64,000 nt of DNA from Escherichia phage PECP20: the sequence record OQ873415.1; one strand, 5' to 3'. Shown here piece after piece: positions 2,166-63,452 of this stretch. Every line of letters begins with the position of its first letter. Position 1 is the first letter of the stretch. The position numbers were made by a program, and so were the translations under genes. Under the pieces are notes generated by a model. It was not told the DNA's origin. It was given only the letters and a program-made list of their open reading frames with translations, and made no database searches.

Positions 2166-2706
2166 ATAAAAAATCCAAACTAGGCGAATCGCTAACAACT
2201 TCCTTCTTTTCAGCCCCAGGAGCTTTATAAGCGGATTCTTCATAATGCGTCATTTTATCGTAGATGTCTTGAATAAACGTTTCATCTACCAACGCTACCA
2301 TATCATCGTCATGACTGTCGTAGACATTATGAACGAAGTAACTATATTTCTTTGCAACTTCCTTACGTTCTTTTTTGATACGTTGGACAAAAGCATTAAA
2401 ACAAGCTCGAGTTATGTATGCATGTGGGTTATTGTACTTAGTTTCGTCGAAATTATGAAGTCCCTTAATAGAGGCTTCAATCCCATCTGCAATCATCTCC
2501 TGCTTCCAAGACTGGGTATATCCTGAAAAGTTGAAACGTTTGGACAGGCCTTCGGCGATAAGCATAATTGCTAAACCGATGGTATCATTCTGACGAATAA
2601 TTTTGTTTGGGTCTTTATTATTTAAGAGCTCCTTTTTCCACTCGATTATAGCAGCGAGAAGCTCTTTATTATTCACATAGTTATTTTTAGGTTTTTGTTC
2701 AGTCAT
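2149..2706 (-). CDS. 55: Late-transcription sigma factor gp55
   Basis: Translation ...[79 protein letters not shown]... is near-identical to T4 gp55 as I remember it; start placed at the internal ATG (185 aa). Confidence 0.9.
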
Positions 2707-2778
2707 AAGTACCTCTTGGCTCAATTCATAGGTCTATTATATCATAATATTTAGAGACCTATCTTAAAGCACGAGATA

Positions 2779-3048
2779 CTATCGGAGCAAACAATAAGCC
2801 TGAAACACTTTTTCCATTAAACGTTTGAACTCATGGATATCGATATAAAGCTCAGTAAGACCGGCATTATAAAGAAAATCTAAAAAGTTCTCATGTGTTT
2901 CGTTATAGTCGCCTTCGTTTAATTGAGATACATGAGTTTCCCAAAAACCGACACCTTTAACAAATGGAAAATACGTAACTTTCATAAAGTTGTCGACGTA
3001 AAATTCGCCCAGCTTTTCTTCAGTTATACTGATTCGAGTTAATTTCAT
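2779..3048 (-). CDS. Hypothetical protein (89 aa)
   Basis: ORF track; ATGA overlap with neighbour. Confidence 0.5.
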   Translation of the reverse strand: MKLTRISITEEKLGEFYVDNFMKVTYFPFVKGVGFWETHVSQLNEGDYNETHENFLDFLYNAGLTELYIDIHEFKRLMEKVFQAYCLLR

Positions 3049-3272
3049 TCTAGTTCCTTTGCTGCAAATAAGGCAGCATCCAATGAATCAAATTGGTCAA
3101 CGAAATCAATATTCAACGCATCGTCAACCGTAGCATATAGCCACCATTGTTTGAATTCGTATTCTAGAATAAATCCAGGACCTTCGATCTGAGGAAGACC
3201 TAGACTATTTGTACCAACTTCGTAACCAGCTAGACGCAGGTCATTAATCAAAGTTTCTGTTAATACGCTCAT
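3045..3272 (-). CDS. Hypothetical protein (75 aa)
   Basis: ORF track. Confidence 0.5.
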   Translation of the reverse strand: MSVLTETLINDLRLAGYEVGTNSLGLPQIEGPGFILEYEFKQWWLYATVDDALNIDFVDQFDSLDAALFAAKELE

Positions 3273-6611: not shown

Positions 6612-8425
6612 TGGTGTTTAACCCTATGCATGATTTCTTTATTTTTACCGAGATTAAATCCGCGTTCGTTCGGATTTCCCAAATAACCGCATGTCCTTCT
6701 TATAGTGTTCATCTTTTTAGGATCAGTTTCTCCACAAACTGAACAAACAAATCCGTTTTCAGTAGGAGTCATTTCATGAGTACTTCCACACGTAAAACAT
6801 TTATCTACTGGCATATTAACACCAAAATAATCTAAATGTTGTGCAGCATAATCCCACACGGCCTCAAGACCTTTTAGGTTATTTTTCATATCAGGAAGTT
6901 CAACATAAGAAATGTGACCACCTGTCGCAATGAAATGATATGGCGCTTCACGAGAAATCTTTTCAAACGGAGTAATATTTTCTTCTACTGAAACGTGGAA
7001 ACTATTAGTGTACCAGCCTTTATCGGTAACATCTTTTACGCTTCCATATTTTTCTGTATCAAGTTTACAGAAACGATAACACAAGTTTTCAGCAGGAGTA
7101 GAATATAAACTAAAAGCAAATCCAGTTCTTTCGGTCCACTGTTTAAGATGAGCATTCATTTTAGTTAAAATTTCTTGCCCAATATCACGACCGACAAGAA
7201 TATTCAATTCGTGAATACCAATGTATCCCAAAGACACTGAACTTCTACCGTTTTTAAATAACTCAATTATATCGTCGTCAGGTTTAAGACGAACCCCAAA
7301 TGCACCTTCTTGGTAAAGAATAGGAGCAACAGTCGCTTTAACTCCTTTTAAGGAACTAATTCTACACATCAAGGCTTCAAAGCACAGATCCATTCGTTCA
7401 TTAAATAACTCAACAAATTTCTGTTCATTGAACTGTGTTCCAATATAAGAATCTAACGCGATGCGAGGAAGATTCAGTGTTACAACACCGAGATTATTAC
7501 GTCCATCAAGAATTTCATTACCAGTCGAATCTTTCCATACACTCAAGAAACTACGGCAACCCATTGGAGAAACTGGAACTGAAGAACCAGTAATAGCTTT
7601 ATTATTCTTAACCGAAATAATGTCAGGATACATTCTTTTGCTTGCACATTCTAACGCAAGTTGTTTAATATCATAGTTCGGATCATCTTTATAAAGATTA
7701 ACACCTTCTTCAACAAACATAACAAGTTTAGGAAAAATAGGAGTTATTCCATCACGACCAAGACCTTTAATCCGATTTTTCAGAATTGCTTTCTGAATCA
7801 TTCGTTCGGTCCAATCAGTTCCAGTACCAAATGTAATTGTTACAAAAGGCGTTTGCCCGTTTGAACTAAAAAGAGTATTTACCTCATACTCATAAGCTTG
7901 AAATGCGTCATATACATCTTTTTCTGTTTTAGATTGAGCATAATTCAGAATGTCTGGTATTTGCCATTTTTCTGCATCTTCAACATGTTTAGCGTATGTA
8001 CGTTTAACATAAGGAGAAAGAACTTTATCGACATTCGCAAATGTAGTTCCGCCGTACTGATGTGAAGCAACTTGTGCAGTAATTTGTGCCATAATTGCAG
8101 TAGCAACACCAATCGATTTAGGCGTTTCAATTTGAGCATTGCCCAATTTAAATCCGTTCTCAAGCATCCCCTTTAAATCGACTAAACAGCAATTGGTAAA
8201 CGGAAGAGCAGGAGAATAATCAATATCATGCATGTGGATAATTCCACTTTCATGCGCATTCATAATAAAAGACGGGACCATATTTTTGGCAATGTGCTTA
8301 GACACAATACCAGCCATAAGGTCCCGTTGAGTTGGAAAAACACGAGAATCTTTATTAGCATTCTCGTTCAAAAGATCTTTATTAGTTTTATAAATTAATC
8401 CTTCAATTTCTTTTTCAATTTTCAT
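6608..8425 (-). CDS. nrdD: Anaerobic ribonucleoside-triphosphate reductase NrdD (glycyl radical enzyme), uninterrupted
   Basis: 605 aa; C-terminal glycyl-radical motif RRTCGYLG and Zn-ribbon cysteines; same length as T4 NrdD; one continuous ORF, no intron. Confidence 0.95.
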   Translation of the reverse strand: MKIEKEIEGLIYKTNKDLLNENANKDSRVFPTQRDLMAGIVSKHIAKNMVPSFIMNAHESGIIHMHDIDYSPALPFTNCCLVDLKGMLENGFKLGNAQIETPKSIGVATAIMAQITAQVASHQYGGTTFANVDKVLSPYVKRTYAKHVEDAEKWQIPDILNYAQSKTEKDVYDAFQAYEYEVNTLFSSNGQTPFVTITFGTGTDWTERMIQKAILKNRIKGLGRDGITPIFPKLVMFVEEGVNLYKDDPNYDIKQLALECASKRMYPDIISVKNNKAITGSSVPVSPMGCRSFLSVWKDSTGNEILDGRNNLGVVTLNLPRIALDSYIGTQFNEQKFVELFNERMDLCFEALMCRISSLKGVKATVAPILYQEGAFGVRLKPDDDIIELFKNGRSSVSLGYIGIHELNILVGRDIGQEILTKMNAHLKQWTERTGFAFSLYSTPAENLCYRFCKLDTEKYGSVKDVTDKGWYTNSFHVSVEENITPFEKISREAPYHFIATGGHISYVELPDMKNNLKGLEAVWDYAAQHLDYFGVNMPVDKCFTCGSTHEMTPTENGFVCSVCGETDPKKMNTIRRTCGYLGNPNERGFNLGKNKEIMHRVKHQ

Positions 8426-24976: not shown

Positions 24977-25306
24977 TTATACTCTAGGCTTTTGAGCTTG
25001 TTTGGTATTGGATTCCCATGTGGCTTTGGTAATTTTGTTAGCGGCATAACCAAAGGCATTAGATAGAACACCTTTAGAGTTGAATACATCCAATCCAATA
25101 AGTACACCGGCTGTGTTAAATTTAGGAGCAAAGTACGCATTAGTTTTAGAAAGAGCTTTTTTCAATTCAGGGTCTTGAACCAAGTCATCAAAAACGCCTT
25201 TACTATTTACTTTATATGTTACTTTGGGATTTTTACTTTCTTCGATAGCAGCTTTCTGTTCCGCAGATAATGTAACTTCAGTGATAAACTCTTGATATGT
25301 TTTCAT
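24977..25306 (-). CDS. Internal-protein-like head protein with N-terminal capsid-targeting sequence (MKTYQEFITE...)
   Basis: N-terminus matches the T4 internal-protein targeting consensus MKTYQEFIAE; AAGGAAAAA ribosome-binding site. Confidence 0.55.
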   Translation of the reverse strand: MKTYQEFITEVTLSAEQKAAIEESKNPKVTYKVNSKGVFDDLVQDPELKKALSKTNAYFAPKFNTAGVLIGLDVFNSKGVLSNAFGYAANKITKATWESNTKQAQKPRV

Positions 25307-33417: not shown

Positions 33418-33921
33418 TCATTTATTTTTAATTTTACAAATTTTTCCAGCTTCGATACACGCGGCATAGATGATGCTCTGGGCAATTTTATTGCTAGTAG
33501 ACCTTGCAATCACACTAAGAACAATTTCTTTTTCTTCACCACCCCATCCCCAGCTATTTTGTCCATAGGTACCTTTAACTACGGCCGAAACTTCAACAGA
33601 ACGTCCACCATCAGAAGTTTTAACATCTACAACCCAATCGCCATCTTTCTCTTCAACTCGTGGTTTATCCCAAGAAATACTAATATATGATTCACTGCCG
33701 ATAGAAGTTGCCGGGTTTTTCTCTATCGTAAGCCCTTCACTTTCCAGCCATTCAATAGTATTTGCACATAAATCCGAAGAACACCTCATCGGAAAGCGGC
33801 AAGATTTTTCACCTTTAGAGGCGGCTTCATACGTCTTTTCTAAAATACGCTTTTGCACGTTTTTAAAAATAGTTTCAGCAGATTCTTCAGATTTTTTATT
33901 CAGTTCAGTATAAAGACTCAT
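33418..33921 (-). CDS. Hypothetical protein (167 aa)
   Basis: ORF track. Confidence 0.5.
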   Translation of the reverse strand: MSLYTELNKKSEESAETIFKNVQKRILEKTYEAASKGEKSCRFPMRCSSDLCANTIEWLESEGLTIEKNPATSIGSESYISISWDKPRVEEKDGDWVVDVKTSDGGRSVEVSAVVKGTYGQNSWGWGGEEKEIVLSVIARSTSNKIAQSIIYAACIEAGKICKIKNK

Positions 33922-34000: not shown

Positions 34001-34026
34001 ACCCCCTAATGGGGACCGAAGTCCCC
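34001..34026 (-). repeat. Dual-hairpin element ACCCCCTAATGGGGACCGAAGTCCCC, copy 2
   Basis: Near-identical to 16042-16069; directly upstream of an early promoter. Confidence 0.5.
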
Positions 34027-34031
34027 ATTCT

Positions 34032-34658
34032 TTACTTACGAGTTTTTGCATACTGAGCAGCGTCAGCAGCCAAACGACCTGCTTGTCGAAGTTTTTCTTT
34101 AATCTCATCATGAAGTGGTTGAGTATACTTCAAACCTTCGATAGTCAAATAAAGACGATAAAGGTCTGGGGTATCAAGGTTGTTGATATGTTGGCCATTA
34201 CGAAGACTATTGAATTCACGAACGAGTGAAGATGTATCAGATTCAATATCACGAACAAGCGAAGATAGTTGTTTATATTTTTTTTCCAGGCTAGAAGTAT
34301 CAAACTTAAGAGCAGGAGCTTTAGGAGTTGCTTTTACTTCCGGCTTAGGCTCAGGTTTTGCTACTGCTTTAGGGGTCGCAGGTTTAGGAGTGGTAGGAGC
34401 AGGTTTTACTTTAGGCGAACCAGATTTAGCAGAAACACCACCACTAACAATATCTTTGAATGCTTTAGAAGCTCTGTAATATTCTTTTTGGCTGGAAGTG
34501 TCGATACCGTACATGGCTTGAACGTTTTTGAAAAACTCTGTACTAGTTTTTGTACCAGAAATAGCATCGTAAGCAGCTTGCCATTTCTCTTTTGTCATAC
34601 GTACACCGGCTTCGGTGATTACTTCCGTTTCGGCTAAAAATTCATTAAAAGTATACAT
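34032..34658 (-). CDS. Internal-protein-like head protein (208 aa) with capsid-targeting N-terminus (MYTFNEFLAE...) and Pro/Lys-rich low-complexity core
   Basis: Capsid-targeting consensus; preceded by late promoter TATAAATA. Confidence 0.55.
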   Translation of the reverse strand: MYTFNEFLAETEVITEAGVRMTKEKWQAAYDAISGTKTSTEFFKNVQAMYGIDTSSQKEYYRASKAFKDIVSGGVSAKSGSPKVKPAPTTPKPATPKAVAKPEPKPEVKATPKAPALKFDTSSLEKKYKQLSSLVRDIESDTSSLVREFNSLRNGQHINNLDTPDLYRLYLTIEGLKYTQPLHDEIKEKLRQAGRLAADAAQYAKTRK

Positions 34659-34693
34659 TGATGGTCCTTAGAAAGTAGGTTTATTGTTTACTA

Positions 34694-34701
34694 TATTTAT
34701 A
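34694..34701 (-). promoter_or_regulatory. T4 late promoter TATAAATA for the internal-protein gene
   Basis: Exact octamer on the minus strand about 35 nt upstream of the ATG. Confidence 0.6.
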
Positions 34702-34702
34702 C

Positions 34703-34731
34703 AAAAAAGCCCCAACCTTTCGGAAGGGGCT
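34703..34731 (-). terminator. Intrinsic terminator (GCCCC stem, then TTTTTTG) ending the tRNA/small-RNA transcription unit
   Basis: Hairpin plus U-run on the minus strand. Confidence 0.6.
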
Positions 34732-34740
34732 ATATACCTT

Positions 34741-34900
34741 GTCGGGGTTTCCACCTACTAGGTAAGTGTTTGTACGAAACGCCGGGATTCGAACCCGGTT
34801 ATTAAGCAGTTGACGCTACTCAATATTTTTAAAAGGCCATATCTCTACCATATCCGAACGTCCCGTCAAAAACGCTACTCGGCTTACGGCAAAGATATTT
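34741..34900 (-). ncRNA. tRNA-like element with canonical T-arm (CCGGG-TTCGAAT-CCCGG) but no canonical acceptor stem; possible small stable RNA or tRNA remnant
   Basis: T-loop consensus at complement(34781..34799); I could not fold a full cloverleaf; sits in a 330-nt non-coding stretch. Confidence 0.3.
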
Positions 34901-35033
34901 CCTCGAATCGATAATTCTGTGCGCCGTTTCTGCTGTGATGTAAGGGGATATTAACGAATCATAAAGATTTATTAAGACCAGTCCCTACTCAGGGAACATC
35001 AGTCCGACGACTTGCCGGTAGCGACCCGGCTTC

Positions 35034-35378
35034 TTATTTTGGCATATCATCAATTTGCTCTCGACGCCGACGCCATAGATTAATCGCTTCATAGGCACAT
35101 TCTGCGTTTGGTATATGACGGCAATAATATAATGATTCGCGTTTCTGGAACCGATGTTGTAATGGAATTTCGTTTAAAAGGTCTTTACGGTCAAAGTATT
35201 CAAAACTAGTTAACCCAGAACGGTTTTTAAGAAACTTCCAATGTCCGAATTCATTTTGAACATAGATGTAATCGGCATGCTGATACAGCGAATTAATCAA
35301 TCGATGAGAAATAACTGTATCATATTCGTTAAAATAAAACGTTAAATCATGAACTACCAGATAAATATTGCCTTTCAT
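35034..35378 (-). CDS. Hypothetical protein (~114 aa)
   Basis: Internal ATG with GAGGAAAAT ribosome-binding site; track start is TTG and would run into the tRNA. Confidence 0.45.
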   Translation of the reverse strand: MKGNIYLVVHDLTFYFNEYDTVISHRLINSLYQHADYIYVQNEFGHWKFLKNRSGLTSFEYFDRKDLLNEIPLQHRFQKRESLYYCRHIPNAECAYEAINLWRRRREQIDDMPK

Positions 35379-35396: not shown

Positions 35397-35473
35397 TGGT
35401 CGAGACAGAAGGATTCTAACCTTCAACCTACGGATTAGAAGTCCGTTGCTCCATACAATTGAGCTATGCCTCG
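35397..35473 (-). tRNA. tRNA-Arg (anticodon TCT), CCA encoded
   Basis: Hand fold: acceptor CGAGGCA/TGTCTCG, D-arm GCTC...GAGC, anticodon stem ACGGA/TCCGT with loop CTTCTAA, T-stem GAAGG/CCTTC, discriminator A plus CCA. Confidence 0.75.
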
Positions 35474-35479
35474 AATATA

Positions 35480-35553
35480 TGGCCCAGACCAGATTCGAAC
35501 TGGTAACCTTTCCCTTATGAGGGGACTGCTGCTAACCATTGAGCTACAGGGCC
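35480..35553 (-). tRNA. tRNA with anticodon CAT (Met, or Ile if lysidine-modified)
   Basis: Hand fold: acceptor GGCCCTG/CTGGGCC (one U-U mismatch), anticodon loop CTCATAA, T-arm ACCAG-TTCGAAT-CTGGT; no encoded CCA. Confidence 0.7.
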
Positions 35554-37059: not shown

Positions 37060-37347
37060 TTACAGAAGAGTTTTTGCAATAATTTTAAGCTGAGCTACAG
37101 AAATGTGCTTAGCTTTAAACAGTGCAGTCTCTTCAGCCGGAGAGATAACAATAGTAGCGCCATCTTTCTTAGCAGACCATCCGTCCCCTAAGTAAACAGT
37201 ACCTTTTACTTCTTCACCGTCAACCAGACTAATCATTGGTTTACCCTCACGTCCTTTATTTGTTTTAATAACTTCAGAAGTAAGGGATGCTTCGGTCAGA
37301 GTAGAAACGTTAGCAACAGGTGATATAAATTCTTTATAGGTTTTCAT
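37060..37347 (-). CDS. Internal protein I-like head protein (95 aa) with capsid-targeting N-terminus MKTYKEFISP...
   Basis: Capsid-targeting consensus; same length and position (next to 57B) as T4 IPI. Confidence 0.6.
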   Translation of the reverse strand: MKTYKEFISPVANVSTLTEASLTSEVIKTNKGREGKPMISLVDGEEVKGTVYLGDGWSAKKDGATIVISPAEETALFKAKHISVAQLKIIAKTLL

Positions 37348-59125: not shown

Positions 59126-61441
<2,316 letters not shown>

Positions 61442-61469: not shown

Positions 61470-63452
61470 ATGTCACTTCTCTCTCCGGGCGTTGAGCTCA
61501 AAGAAACTACCGTACAGAGTACTGTAGTTAATAACTCCACTGGTACTGCTGCTCTGGCTGGAAAATTCCAATGGGGCCCTGCATTCCAGATTAAACAAAT
61601 CACCGATGAAGTTGCATTGGTTGATATGTTTGGTACTCCTAATACGGATACAGCAGATTATTTCATGTCTGCTATGAACTTCCTTCAATACGGTAATGAC
61701 CTTCGTGTTGTACGCGCAGTTGATCGTGATACTGCTAAGAACTCATCTCCTGTAGCAGGCAATATCGAATTCACAATCTCAGCTGCAGGTAGTAACTATG
61801 CGGTTGGTGATAAAATTATCGTTAAGTATTTGTCCGAAACTGTTGAAGCAGATGGTTATGTCACTTCAGTTGATGTCGATGGTAAAATCCTTAACATTTA
61901 TATCCCAACCGGTAAAATTATTGCTCGTGCAAAAGAAATTAATGAATATCCGGCATTAGGTTCTAACTGGACCGCCGAAGTTGCCGGTTCTTCTTCTGGA
62001 CTCTCTGGCGTTATTACAATTGGTTCTATCGTAACCGATTCAGGTATTCTGTTGACTGAAGTTGAAACTTCAGAAGAAGCTATTACTTCTCTAACTTTCC
62101 AAGAATCTATTAAAAAATATGGTGTCCCAGGCGTAGTTGCTCTTTATCCTGGTGAACTTGGCGACCGGCTCGAAATTGAAATCGTATCTAAAGCAGACTA
62201 TGACAAAGGTGCTTCAGCCCAGTTAAAAATTTATCCTGATGGTGGTACTCGCGCATCTACTGCTAAAGCAATCTTTGGGTATGGCCCACAAACTGATGAC
62301 CAATATGCGATTATCGTTCGTCGTAACGATGCTGTAGTCCAGAGTGTAGTTCTTTCTACTAAACGCGGTGAACGCGATATTTATGGTAGTAATATCTTTA
62401 TTGATGATTTCTTTGCTAAAGGCGCAAGCAATTATATTTTCGCTACTGCACAAGGTTGGCCAAAAGGTTTCTCTGGTGTAATCAAACTGAGTGGTGGCTT
62501 ATCATCTAATGAAACGGTTGACGCTGGTGATTTAATGGAAGCTTGGGATTTGTTTGCGGACCGCGAATCTGTTAATGCGCAGTTGTTTATTGCCGGTTCT
62601 TGTGCAGGTGAATCTTTAGAAGTTGCTTCTACAGTTCAGAAACATGTTGTAGCAATTGGTGATTCTCGTCAAGATTGCTTGGTTCTTTGCTCACCACCAC
62701 GTGCAACTATAGTCGGTATTCCTGTTAATCGTGCAGTTGATAATCTGGTTGATTGGCGTACTGCATCAGGATCTTACACTGATAATAACTTTAATGTAAG
62801 TTCTACTTATGCTGCTATTGACGGTAACTATAAATATCAATACGACAAATATAACGATGTGAATCGTTGGGTTCCGTTAGCTGCTGATATTGCCGGTCTT
62901 TGTGCTCGCACAGACAATATTTCTCAGCCTTGGATGTCTCCGGCCGGTTATAACCGTGGACAAATTCTTAACGTTATTAAGCTTGCAATTGAAACTCGTC
63001 AACCACAACGTGATCGTTTGTATCAGGAAGCTATTAACCCTGTTACTGGTACCGGTGGTGACGGATATGTTCTGTACGGCGATAAAACTGCCACTTCCGT
63101 TCCTTCACCATTTGACCGTATTAACGTTCGTCGTTTGTTCAATATGGTTAAAACGAACATTGGTTCAGCATCTAAATATCGCCTGTTTGAATTGAACAAC
63201 GCATTTACCCGTTCTTCTTTCCGTACAGAGACTTCTCAATATCTACAGGGTATTAAAGCTCTCGGTGGTGTATATAACTTTAAAGTTGTTTGTGATACTA
63301 CCAATAACACCCCAGCAGTTATCGACCGTAATGAATTTGTAGCTACTTTCTACTTACAACCTGCCCGCTCGATAAATTATATTACGTTGAACTTTGTAGC
63401 AACAGCAACTGGTGCCGATTTCGACGAACTGATTGGTGCTGTAGGTGGTTAA
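61470..63452 (+). CDS. 18: Tail sheath protein gp18
   Basis: 660 aa; MSLLSPGVELKETTVQS... Confidence 0.95.
   Translation: MSLLSPGVELKETTVQSTVVNNSTGTAALAGKFQWGPAFQIKQITDEVALVDMFGTPNTDTADYFMSAMNFLQYGNDLRVVRAVDRDTAKNSSPVAGNIEFTISAAGSNYAVGDKIIVKYLSETVEADGYVTSVDVDGKILNIYIPTGKIIARAKEINEYPALGSNWTAEVAGSSSGLSGVITIGSIVTDSGILLTEVETSEEAITSLTFQESIKKYGVPGVVALYPGELGDRLEIEIVSKADYDKGASAQLKIYPDGGTRASTAKAIFGYGPQTDDQYAIIVRRNDAVVQSVVLSTKRGERDIYGSNIFIDDFFAKGASNYIFATAQGWPKGFSGVIKLSGGLSSNETVDAGDLMEAWDLFADRESVNAQLFIAGSCAGESLEVASTVQKHVVAIGDSRQDCLVLCSPPRATIVGIPVNRAVDNLVDWRTASGSYTDNNFNVSSTYAAIDGNYKYQYDKYNDVNRWVPLAADIAGLCARTDNISQPWMSPAGYNRGQILNVIKLAIETRQPQRDRLYQEAINPVTGTGGDGYVLYGDKTATSVPSPFDRINVRRLFNMVKTNIGSASKYRLFELNNAFTRSSFRTETSQYLQGIKALGGVYNFKVVCDTTNNTPAVIDRNEFVATFYLQPARSINYITLNFVATATGADFDELIGAVGG

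What the first reader, a model, noticed from the sequence alone, without database searches (positions are those of the whole stretch)
34032..34658. Large internal-protein-like gene with Pro/Lys-rich low-complexity core driven by a late promoter
A 208-aa protein with capsid-targeting N-terminus MYTFNEFLAE and a central tract (SPKVKPAPTTPKPATPKAVAKPEPKPEVKATPKAPALK). It sits immediately downstream of a terminator-plus-TATAAATA unit. Together with the genes at 24977, 25786 and 37060 the window carries four internal-protein-like genes, more dispersed than in T4.
Basis: partly seen in the sequence, partly recalled or inferred. Interest (0 to 1): 0.4.

Follow-up and report, generated by a model that had tools for sequence, protein, structure and literature searches.

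The report
Unannotated T4-type injected head protein
This gene in an RB69-like (T4-family) phage most likely encodes a new kind of "internal protein", packed into the phage head and injected with the DNA, which every database so far labels only as hypothetical.

Summary
A 208-aa ORF lies at 34032-34658, on the minus strand. It has the stated N-terminus and Pro/Lys tract, and a hairpin plus TATAAATA directly upstream.

The window is a Mosigvirus (RB69-like T-even phage). The protein belongs to PHROG 2280, "unknown function", and is "hypothetical" in all listed phage records.

- In 20 of 22 relatives across several genera, the N-terminus keeps the residues that direct T4 capsid targeting (aromatic-4, Phe/Ile-7). 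It also keeps those for prohead-protease cleavage (Leu/Ile-8, Glu-10), and most have a second [LIV]xE-Ala/Ser site.
- A hairpin plus late-promoter motif (exact in three genera, one mismatch in two) is found in five genera.
- The mature product is about 21 kDa with pI 9.7. It has two small helical domains joined by a disordered Lys/Pro linker.
- There is no homology to T4 IPIII or IPII beyond the leader, and no informative fold match.
- The gene sits between rnaC and the e.x genes, a position empty in T4. That makes a third ip locus.
- The locus is hypervariable, and the N and C domains reassort independently.

Most likely it is a capsid-targeted, injected internal protein, plausibly anti-defence. 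Virion presence is untested. It is a new member of a known kind and of moderate interest.

The parts
34032..34658 (-). Coding sequence, 208 aa. Precursor of the putative internal head protein (PHROG 2280).
   Evidence: ORF list and translation. PHROG 2280 at E=2e-58. 138 phage records match by tblastn; those listed with an annotation say 'hypothetical protein'.
34629..34658 (-). Codons 1-10, MYTFNEFLAE. A capsid-targeting-sequence-like leader ending in the first protease motif, L8-A9-E10.
   Evidence: T4 IPIII/IPII begin MKTYQEFIAE and T4 IPI begins MKTFKEF. 20 of 22 relatives keep aromatic-4, F/I-7, L/I-8 and E-10 (one residue earlier in two members that lack residue 2). The roles of residues 4, 7, 8 and 10 are from PMC9026906.
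34611..34628 (-). Codons 11-16, TEVITE. A second consensus prohead-protease site, I14-T15-E16, followed by Ala17. The predicted mature N-terminus is A17.
   Evidence: An [LIV]xE[AS] site at residues 12-18 is present in most members. It is the same ITE|A motif at which, from memory, T4 IPI is cut.
34440..34610 (-). N-terminal helical domain, residues 17-73.
   Evidence: AlphaFold2 helices at 23-31, 39-50 and 57-72, with pLDDT about 85. The domain is retained even where the C-domain is replaced.
34305..34439 (-). Disordered Lys/Pro/Ala-rich linker, residues 74-118. Net charge +8, 11 Pro, 10 basic residues, all of them Lys.
   Evidence: pLDDT 32-49 with no secondary structure. Composition. Length and sequence vary among relatives.
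34035..34304 (-). C-terminal three-helix domain, residues 119-208. It stays the better-conserved module in the more distant relatives of this allele.
   Evidence: Helices at 122-153, 164-177 and 180-206, with pLDDT about 87. It is 66-78% identical across the main clade. Only generic helical-bundle fold matches were found.
34694..34701 (-). TATAAATA, a T4-type late-promoter motif. Its 3' end lies 35 nt upstream of the ATG.
   Evidence: The motif sits at the same place, exact or with one mismatch, in Dhaka-, Karam-, Kanagawa- and Marfavirus homologues.
34665..34669 (-). Shine-Dalgarno AAGGA, 6 nt before the ATG.
   Evidence: Read directly from the sequence.
34703..34730 (-). Intrinsic terminator: a GAAA-loop hairpin at 34709-34730 and a T6 run at 34703-34708. 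It ends the upstream tRNA/rnaD/rnaC unit and directly abuts the late promoter.
   Evidence: Sequence. It aligns with the 3' end of the T4 rnaC region. A hairpin precedes the promoter in all five genera examined.
34008..34029 (-). Stable UUCG-loop hairpin (GGGGAC-UUCG-GUCCCC) 3 nt after the stop codon. It marks the 3' end of a monocistronic late unit.
   Evidence: Scan hit and the sequence itself. By my reading of the sequence, the next gene (33921) has its own early-type GTTTAC...TACTAT promoter; the scan did not list a site there.

Best explanation
The gene encodes a T4-type internal head protein of a family not yet recognised as such.

Inferred mechanism:
1. It is transcribed late from its own TATAAATA promoter as a monocistronic unit.
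2. The 10-residue leader MYTFNEFLAE targets the precursor to the scaffolding core of the prohead.
3. The prohead protease (a gp21 homologue) removes the leader at LAE10 and/or ITE16|A17.
4. This leaves a basic ~21 kDa protein of two small helical domains joined by a flexible Lys/Pro-rich linker. It stays among the packaged DNA, with the linker lysines probably contacting phosphates.
5. It is injected with the genome.

By analogy with T4 Ip1, Ip2 and Ip3, all of which block distinct GmrSD type IV restriction enzymes, its job in the newly infected cell is most likely to neutralise a host defence. The domains would act as the specificity modules.

Shown here: the ORF, the leader and cleavage motifs and their conservation, the conserved late-promoter motif, the domain architecture, the hypervariability and the domain shuffling.

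Inferred: packaging, cleavage, injection and the anti-defence role.
For: 1. Leader. The window protein shares 6 of 10 residues with the T4 CTS, with conservative changes at 3 more. Homologues in Dhakavirus begin MKTYNEFLNES, close to canonical.
2. Conservation of the functional residues. In 20 of 22 family members from Mosig-, Dhaka-, Karam-, Kanagawa- and Marfavirus, Yersinia phage fHe-Yen9-01 and unnamed database clusters, positions 4 (F/Y), 7 (F/I), 8 (L/I) and 10 (E) are kept while positions 2, 3, 5 and 9 vary; in two of them the motif sits one residue earlier. The nucleotides differ. These are the residues shown experimentally to direct targeting (4, 7) and processing (8, 10) (PMC9026906).
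3. Second site. A second [LIV]xE-[AS] site lies at residues 12-18. L/IxE motifs elsewhere are sparse and not conserved in position, so the body should survive the protease.
4. Specificity. The CTS pattern occurs only four times in six frames of 64 kb. The other three hits are the IPI homologue (86% identical to T4 IPI) and two small ORFs, two of the three lying in PHROGs annotated as internal head or virion protein.
5. Promoter. Hairpin plus TATAAATA is exact in three genera and has one mismatch in two, about 30-40 nt before the ATG. The same motif precedes gp18 at 61435, with the ATG at 61470.
6. Product. The mature protein is 21.3 kDa with pI 9.7, against pI 9.65 computed for T4 IPIII after its 10-residue leader. 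The window has no IPIII or IPII homologue. In T4 heads only lysines of the internal proteins contact DNA phosphates (PMC3012670).
7. Arms-race signature. Flanking genes are 88-100% identical to RB69, yet BLAST cannot find the RB69 allele of this gene (27-29% identity; same PHROG). N and C modules reassort. P0019 against P0023 is 94% identical in the N part and 22% in the C part. Q7622 against PG7 is 87% and 19%.
8. Precedent. Ip1-3 share only the leader and each inhibits a different GmrSD (PMC12373910).
Against: - No direct evidence that the protein is in virions. The only related virion proteome I could reach (Jiaodavirus ValerieMcCarty03/04) is truncated in the held supplement. Its main table of proteins with more than 15 spectra lists no candidate from this locus, and I did not confirm that those phages carry a homologue.
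- TATAAATA alone is not statistically enriched in the window.
- Two homologues have a one-mismatch promoter.
- Position 2 is Tyr rather than Lys.
- No fold or sequence similarity to any characterised internal or anti-defence protein. The anti-defence role therefore rests on analogy only.
- The window's allele type is about as conserved between genera as backbone genes are (67.6% identical to the IME08 copy, against 46-73% for most shared neighbouring genes). That could equally point to a general packaging role rather than a strain-specific one.
Confidence: 0.65

Rival explanations
1. The protein is packaged but acts mainly inside the head. It would be a histone-like DNA-condensing or charge-neutralising protein, or an aid to packaging and ejection, working through its Lys/Pro/Ala linker. 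It would have no specific host target.
For: - The linker has net charge +8, is Lys-only and is disordered.
- In T4, lysines of the internal proteins contact DNA phosphates (PMC3012670).
- The family occupies a fixed syntenic position in many genera.
- Between Mosigvirus and Dhakavirus it is about as conserved as most backbone genes.
- It is the only large basic CTS protein in a window that lacks IPIII.
Against: - A generic polycation would not need two folded domains that reassort independently, or be replaced by a 27-29% identical allele inside an otherwise 88-100% identical backbone.
- T4 Ip2 and Ip3 were long assumed to be DNA-packing proteins. They turned out to be specific nuclease inhibitors.
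- T4 does without this gene.
Confidence: 0.2
2. The protein is not packaged. It would be a cytoplasmic late protein whose N-terminus resembles the CTS only because ip-type 5' ends serve as recombination joints or good translation starts.
For: - No virion data exist.
- The gene lies outside the two classical ip loci.
- Conserved ip 5' ends have been proposed as recombination sites (Repoila et al. 1994, recalled from memory; the paper is not held).
Against: - Conservation is at the peptide level, with differing codons. It falls on the four residues known to matter for targeting and cleavage, while neighbouring positions vary.
- A second, independently conserved cleavage motif follows.
- The pattern is found nowhere else in 64 kb.
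Confidence: 0.08
3. It is a morphogenetic prohead-core or scaffold component, like gp22, gp67 or gp68. It would be needed transiently for head assembly and then degraded rather than retained and injected.
For: - CTS-like targeting and protease motifs are also features of core proteins.
- The helical, coiled-coil-like C-domain resembles scaffolding proteins in general character.
Against: - Only the N-terminal cleavage sites are conserved. The body has 0-1 non-conserved L/IxE motifs in most members, so it should persist.
- The gene is absent from T4, which assembles the same kind of head.
- It is apparently frameshifted in the RB69 record.
- Its domains are freely swapped, which is unlike an essential scaffold.
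Confidence: 0.07

Closest known systems
T4 internal protein III (IPIII / Ip3)
   Same: - A 10-residue leader of the MKTYQEFIAE type ending in (L/I)xE.
- Similar precursor size (193 against 208 aa) and a similar pI for the product after the leader is removed (9.65 against 9.73).
- A non-core, accessory-locus gene.
   Different: - No sequence similarity past about residue 26, and no IPIII homologue in the window.
- A different locus: downstream of rnaC rather than next to e and denV.
- A two-domain architecture with a disordered Lys/Pro linker.
- The target of Ip3 is known (GmrSD of ECOR17). Nothing is known for this protein.
T4 internal protein I (IPI / Ip1, the GmrSD inhibitor)
   Same: - Phe at leader position 4.
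- An ITE|A cleavage motif, at residues 17-19 in IPI and 14-16 here.
- The window also carries a true IPI homologue at 37060 (86% identical). The same phage therefore has the machinery that handles such leaders.
   Different: - The processed form of IPI (IPI*) is a compact 76-residue fold of two beta-sheets flanked by helices (PMC3012670). This protein is predicted to be all-helical with two domains and is nearly three times larger.
- No sequence similarity beyond the leader.
Polymorphic ip genes of the ipI locus (Ip7, Ip9 and others in T-even phages)
   Same: - Unrelated bodies behind one conserved leader.
- Allele replacement inside an otherwise conserved backbone.
- Such genes appear in GenBank notes for JK42 (Ip7) and IME08 (Ip9), and 'at least 10' are reported.
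   Different: - Those genes lie between 57B and the tRNA cluster. This family lies on the other side of the tRNA/rnaC cluster.
- It is never annotated as Ip.
- It is larger.
- It shows intragenic module shuffling.
Lys/Pro/Ala-rich spacers (TonB-type Glu-Pro/Lys-Pro repeats, E2 acyltransferase linkers, histone H1 S/TPKK tails)
   Same: Composition and predicted disorder of residues 74-118. A profile search of solved structures gave weak hits to E2 acyltransferase linker regions and to DotF (E 0.05-0.3).
   Different: These are compositional resemblances only and not significant. No exact SPKK repeat is present. Function as a spacer or as a DNA-binding element is untested.

Membership tests
T4-type capsid-targeted internal proteins (Ip) | An N-terminal ~10-residue capsid-targeting sequence, with the targeting determinants at positions 4 (aromatic) and 7 (Phe). 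| tested here: met
   The leader is MYTFNEFLAE, with F4 and F7. These residues are kept in all but one of 22 relatives. The determinants are from PMC9026906. T4 IPI itself has F4.
T4-type capsid-targeted internal proteins (Ip) | A prohead-protease (gp21) cleavage motif (L/I)-x-E at the end of the leader. | tested here: met
   L8-A9-E10, plus I14-T15-E16 followed by Ala. 20 of 22 members keep the first site and most keep a second. Cleavage itself was not observed.
T4-type capsid-targeted internal proteins (Ip) | Synthesis late in infection, together with the other head proteins. | tested here: inconclusive
   TATAAATA lies 35 nt upstream of the ATG. It is exact or has one mismatch in five genera. 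The motif alone is not enriched in the window (11 against 8.7 expected), and no expression data are available.
T4-type capsid-targeted internal proteins (Ip) | Physical presence of the processed protein in mature heads, and injection into the host. | not testable with these tools
   I found no virion proteome of a phage shown to carry the gene. The ValerieMcCarty03/04 supplement is truncated after the 28th protein.
T4-type capsid-targeted internal proteins (Ip) | A dispensable accessory gene in a hypervariable locus, with the body unrelated to other Ips. | tested here: met
   The gene is absent from T4. The RB69 allele is 27-29% identical within an 88-100% identical backbone and is split by a frameshift in the record. 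Modules are shuffled.
T4 IPIII family | Sequence homology of the mature region to T4 IPIII. | tested here: not met
   BLASTP aligns only residues 1-26. tblastn of IPIII against the window hits only 13 leader residues of another gene.
IPI*-like GmrSD inhibitors | The IPI* fold (two beta-sheets flanked by helices) or sequence homology to it. | tested here: not met
Prohead scaffold/core proteins degraded at maturation (gp22, gp67, gp68 type) | Multiple internal gp21 cleavage sites, so that the protein is reduced to small peptides. | tested here: not met
   Only the two N-terminal sites are conserved. Internal L/IxE motifs number 0-1 in most members and are not conserved in position.
Histone H1-like S/TPKK DNA-binding repeats | Tandem S/T-P-K-K (or KPAA-type) motifs shown to bind DNA. 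| tested here: inconclusive
   The linker contains SPKV, TPKP and TPKA (twice), but no exact SPKK. It has net charge +8. DNA binding cannot be tested here.

The most novel reading that the evidence does not exclude
The family is a modular delivery system for injected effectors, not a single protein. A conserved leader directs packaging, and a flexible Lys/Pro linker acts as a recombination joint. Through that joint, small N- and C-terminal helical modules are exchanged between phage genera. Each module would neutralise a different host defence, for example variants of modification-dependent nucleases that attack arabinosyl-hmC DNA. This would be a phage-head counterpart of polymorphic toxin architecture, sited at a third ip hotspot next to rnaC that has so far gone unnoticed.
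Probability: 0.25. Interest if true: 0.6.

Novelty: new member of a known kind. Interest (0 to 1): 0.42.

Why it matters
All three T4 internal proteins were recently shown to be injected inhibitors of distinct type IV restriction enzymes. Every further leader-bearing family is therefore a ready-made candidate for a new anti-defence protein.

This family occurs in well over a hundred sequenced therapeutic-type coliphages and Enterobacter/Klebsiella phages, labelled 'hypothetical' in every annotated record listed. It adds a third ip locus to the T-even map. Its independent swapping of N and C modules gives a natural experiment for mapping specificity.

Recognising it would improve annotation of Mosigvirus, Dhakavirus and Karamvirus genomes used in phage therapy. 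It would also give a short list of alleles to test against host-defence panels.

Tried and rejected
- **Homology to T4 IPIII or IPII.** Rejected. Only the leader aligns.
- **Pfam.** No domain found; the best hit, SIX1_SD, is below threshold.
- **PDB profile search.** Only low-complexity or coiled-coil noise, with E at or above 0.04.
- **Search of 1.8 billion representative proteins.** Only 16 hits. Two of them (P0028, P0029) are acyl-carrier-protein repeats with Ala/Pro linkers, which I judged compositional.
- **Virion proteomics in the literature.**
  - The RB69 arabinosyl-hmC paper contains no protein mass spectrometry.
  - The ValerieMcCarty supplement is truncated, and peptide searches found nothing.
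  - The ECLFM1 paper does not name its 'hypothetical' bands.
  - The Kosakonia Kc305 paper has no proteome.
  - Papers citing fHe-Yen9-01 and JS98 gave nothing useful.
  - Repoila et al. 1994 is not held.
- **A remnant of the gene in T4.** None. The gap between rnaC and e.8 holds only an early promoter.
- **A link to tRNA or rnaC function.** Rejected. T4 has those RNAs without this gene.

Full report
**Observation**

The ORF is real. It lies at 34032..34658 on the minus strand, starts with ATG and encodes 208 aa.

Reading the minus strand upstream gives, in order:
- a GAAA-loop hairpin (34709-34730)
- a T6 run (34703-34708)
- one G
- TATAAATA (34694-34701)
- an AAGGA ribosome-binding site 6 nt before the ATG

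Three nucleotides after the stop codon there is a GGGGAC-UUCG-GUCCCC hairpin (34008-34029). By my reading of the sequence, the next gene has its own early-type promoter. The target therefore looks like a monocistronic late unit set among early genes.

**What the window is**

The protein is 100% identical to hypothetical proteins of Shigella phage JK42 and Escherichia phages AV116, FP43 and CEV1. JK42 is classified in Mosigvirus, the RB69-like T-even phages.

The neighbourhood on the minus strand runs: gene 1, 57A, 57B, ipI, trna.4/.3/.2, one ORF, tRNA-Met, tRNA-Arg, one ORF, then the target, then a 167-aa ORF, frd.3, e.6 and onwards.

The 375-nt 'gap' upstream of the target is not empty. It is 88% identical to the T4 stable RNAs rnaD and rnaC and their terminator. 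In T4 the same terminator is followed only by an early promoter and e.8. T4 has no copy or remnant of the gene.

**Is the leader more than chance?**

A relaxed capsid-targeting pattern was scanned in all six frames. It matches only four times in 64 kb, each time at the start of a real minus-strand ORF:
- 25306: MKTYQEFITE
- 26067: [10 protein letters not shown]
- 37347: MKTYKEFISP...LTE|A, the IPI homologue, 86% identical to T4 IPI
- 34658: the target

Two of the other three fall in PHROGs annotated as internal head or virion protein.

**The family**

The target belongs to PHROG 2280, 'unknown function' (E 2e-58). It has no Pfam domain. A search of 1.8 billion representative proteins finds only 16 relatives.

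tblastn finds the family in 138-189 phage records. The hosts include Escherichia, Shigella, Enterobacter, Klebsiella, Cronobacter, Serratia, Erwinia, Kosakonia and Yersinia. Every annotated record listed calls it 'hypothetical protein'.

In Mosig-, Dhaka-, Karam-, Kanagawa- and Marfavirus the gene sits directly after the tRNA cluster. Where the downstream genes carry T4 names (Dhaka- and Karamvirus), e.8 and e.6 follow it.

**Conservation of the leader**

Dhakavirus homologues begin MKTYNEFLNES, close to the T4 consensus MKTYQEFIAE.

In 20 of 22 family members, positions 4 (F/Y), 7 (F/I), 8 (L/I) and 10 (E) are kept, one residue earlier in two of them. Positions 2, 3, 5 and 9 vary, and the codons differ. 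These are the residues that amber-suppressor work on IPIII identified as determining targeting (4, 7) and processing (8, 10) (PMC9026906).

Most members also have a second [LIV]xE-[Ala/Ser] site at residues 12-18. Here it is ITE16|A17, the same motif as ITE19|A in T4 IPI. Elsewhere in the proteins such motifs are few and not conserved in position. The body should therefore survive the prohead protease.

**Promoter**

TATAAATA is not enriched in the window overall (11 found against 8.7 expected), so on its own it proves nothing. However, a hairpin followed by TATAAATA precedes the gene by about 30-40 nt in all five genera examined. The motif is GATAAATA in one genus and CATAAATA in another. The same motif also sits 27 nt before gp18 in this window.

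**The product**

After removal of 16 residues the protein is 21.3 kDa with pI 9.7. T4 IPIII after its leader has a computed pI of 9.65.

AlphaFold2, run with a 10-sequence alignment, gives:
- a small helical N-domain (residues 19-72, pLDDT about 85)
- a disordered linker (74-113, pLDDT below 50)
- a three-helix C-domain (119-208, pLDDT about 87)

The linker has net charge +8, 11 Pro, and Lys but no Arg.

**Evolutionary behaviour**

Against RB69, the flanking genes are 88-100% identical at the protein level, apart from the adjacent 167-aa ORF (73% over part of its length). BLAST does not find the target in RB69.

RB69 has at this position ORF149c plus ORF148c. This is a divergent PHROG-2280 member that starts MKTYAEFLTEA, is only 27-29% identical, and is split by a frameshift in the record.

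The window's allele is nevertheless 67.6% identical to the Dhakavirus IME08 copy. That implies exchange of alleles between lineages.

The two domains also reassort:

| Pair | N part | C part |
|---|---|---|
| P0019 vs P0023 | 94% | 22% |
| Q7622 vs PG7 | 87% | 19% |
| window vs P0015/P0016/P0018 | 22-40% | 66-73% |

The variable-length linker is the obvious recombination joint.

**Interpretation**

The best-supported reading is a capsid-targeted, protease-processed, injected internal protein of a family not previously labelled as such. It lies at a third ip locus, whereas T4 has two.

All three T4 Ips are now known to inhibit distinct GmrSD type IV restriction enzymes. RB69-type DNA carries arabinosyl-hmC and is cleaved by the type IV restriction enzyme GmrSD (PMC6024577). 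An anti-defence role is therefore the most plausible function, but it is inferred only.

The Lys-rich linker may also contact DNA in the head, since in T4 only lysines of the internal proteins touch phosphates (PMC3012670). A beads-on-a-string shape would suit passage through the tail; that last point is my inference.

The rivals are a purely DNA-packing role, a non-packaged late protein, and a transient scaffold component. They are weighed in the rival explanations.

**Limits**

I could not obtain any virion proteomics for a phage shown to carry the gene. Cleavage, packaging, injection and target are all untested. The promoter call rests on motif conservation.

**Verdict**

It is a new member of a known kind and of moderate interest, mainly as an anti-defence candidate and for its modular shuffling.

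Noticed in passing
window ~34773-35037 (-), trailer and terminator to 34703: Homologues of the T4 stable RNAs rnaD (species 2) and rnaC (species 1), 88% identical to T4 over 352 nt. They are not annotated in the JK42 or RB69 records, and no Rfam family matches them. Rfam and ARAGORN report only tRNA-Arg and tRNA-Met.
   Followed up: partly
window 35034-35378 (-): A 114-aa ORF (RB69ORF150c type, PHROG 3355, unknown function) sits between tRNA-Arg and rnaD. In T4 these two RNAs are separated by a single nucleotide, so this looks like an insertion inside the tRNA/stable-RNA transcription unit.
   Followed up: no
L002 (RB69, NC_004928) 7429-7991 (-): RB69ORF149c and ORF148c together form one frameshift-split, divergent member of the same family (leader MKTYAEFLTEA). 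This is either a sequencing error or a pseudogene. Its upstream motif is AATAAATA rather than TATAAATA.
   Followed up: partly
window 24977-25306 (-): This gene's real start is the internal ATG at 25306 (MKTYQEFITE, 109 aa). It falls in PHROG 3966, 'unknown function', with only a weak link to an internal-head-protein PHROG. It is therefore probably a second unannotated internal-protein family, sitting next to denV.
   Followed up: partly
window 33418-33921 (-): The 167-aa gene just downstream of the target is mosaic. Its N-half matches PHROG 18312 and its C-half PHROG 8232, and it is only 73% identical over 122 aa to RB69. It belongs to the same variable island between frd.3 and the tRNAs, whose flanks are 88-100% identical to RB69.
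   Followed up: no
window 35397-35553 (-): Only two tRNA genes (Arg-UCU and Met-CAU) are present, where T4 has eight. segB is absent from this locus.
   Followed up: no
L004 (Kanagawavirus Q7622) 2501-3112; P0023; P0026: Some family members keep the leader, the N-domain and the linker but carry unrelated C-terminal domains with no PHROG match. Conversely, several members share the C-domain but have divergent N-domains.
   Followed up: partly
window 37060-37347 (-) versus JK42 locus L001 2939-3250: JK42 has an extra 'Ip7' gene between 57B and ipI, and RB69 has an extra 'internal head protein' (RB69p156) there. This window lacks it. So the classical ipI locus is also polymorphic among near-identical Mosigviruses.
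   Followed up: no
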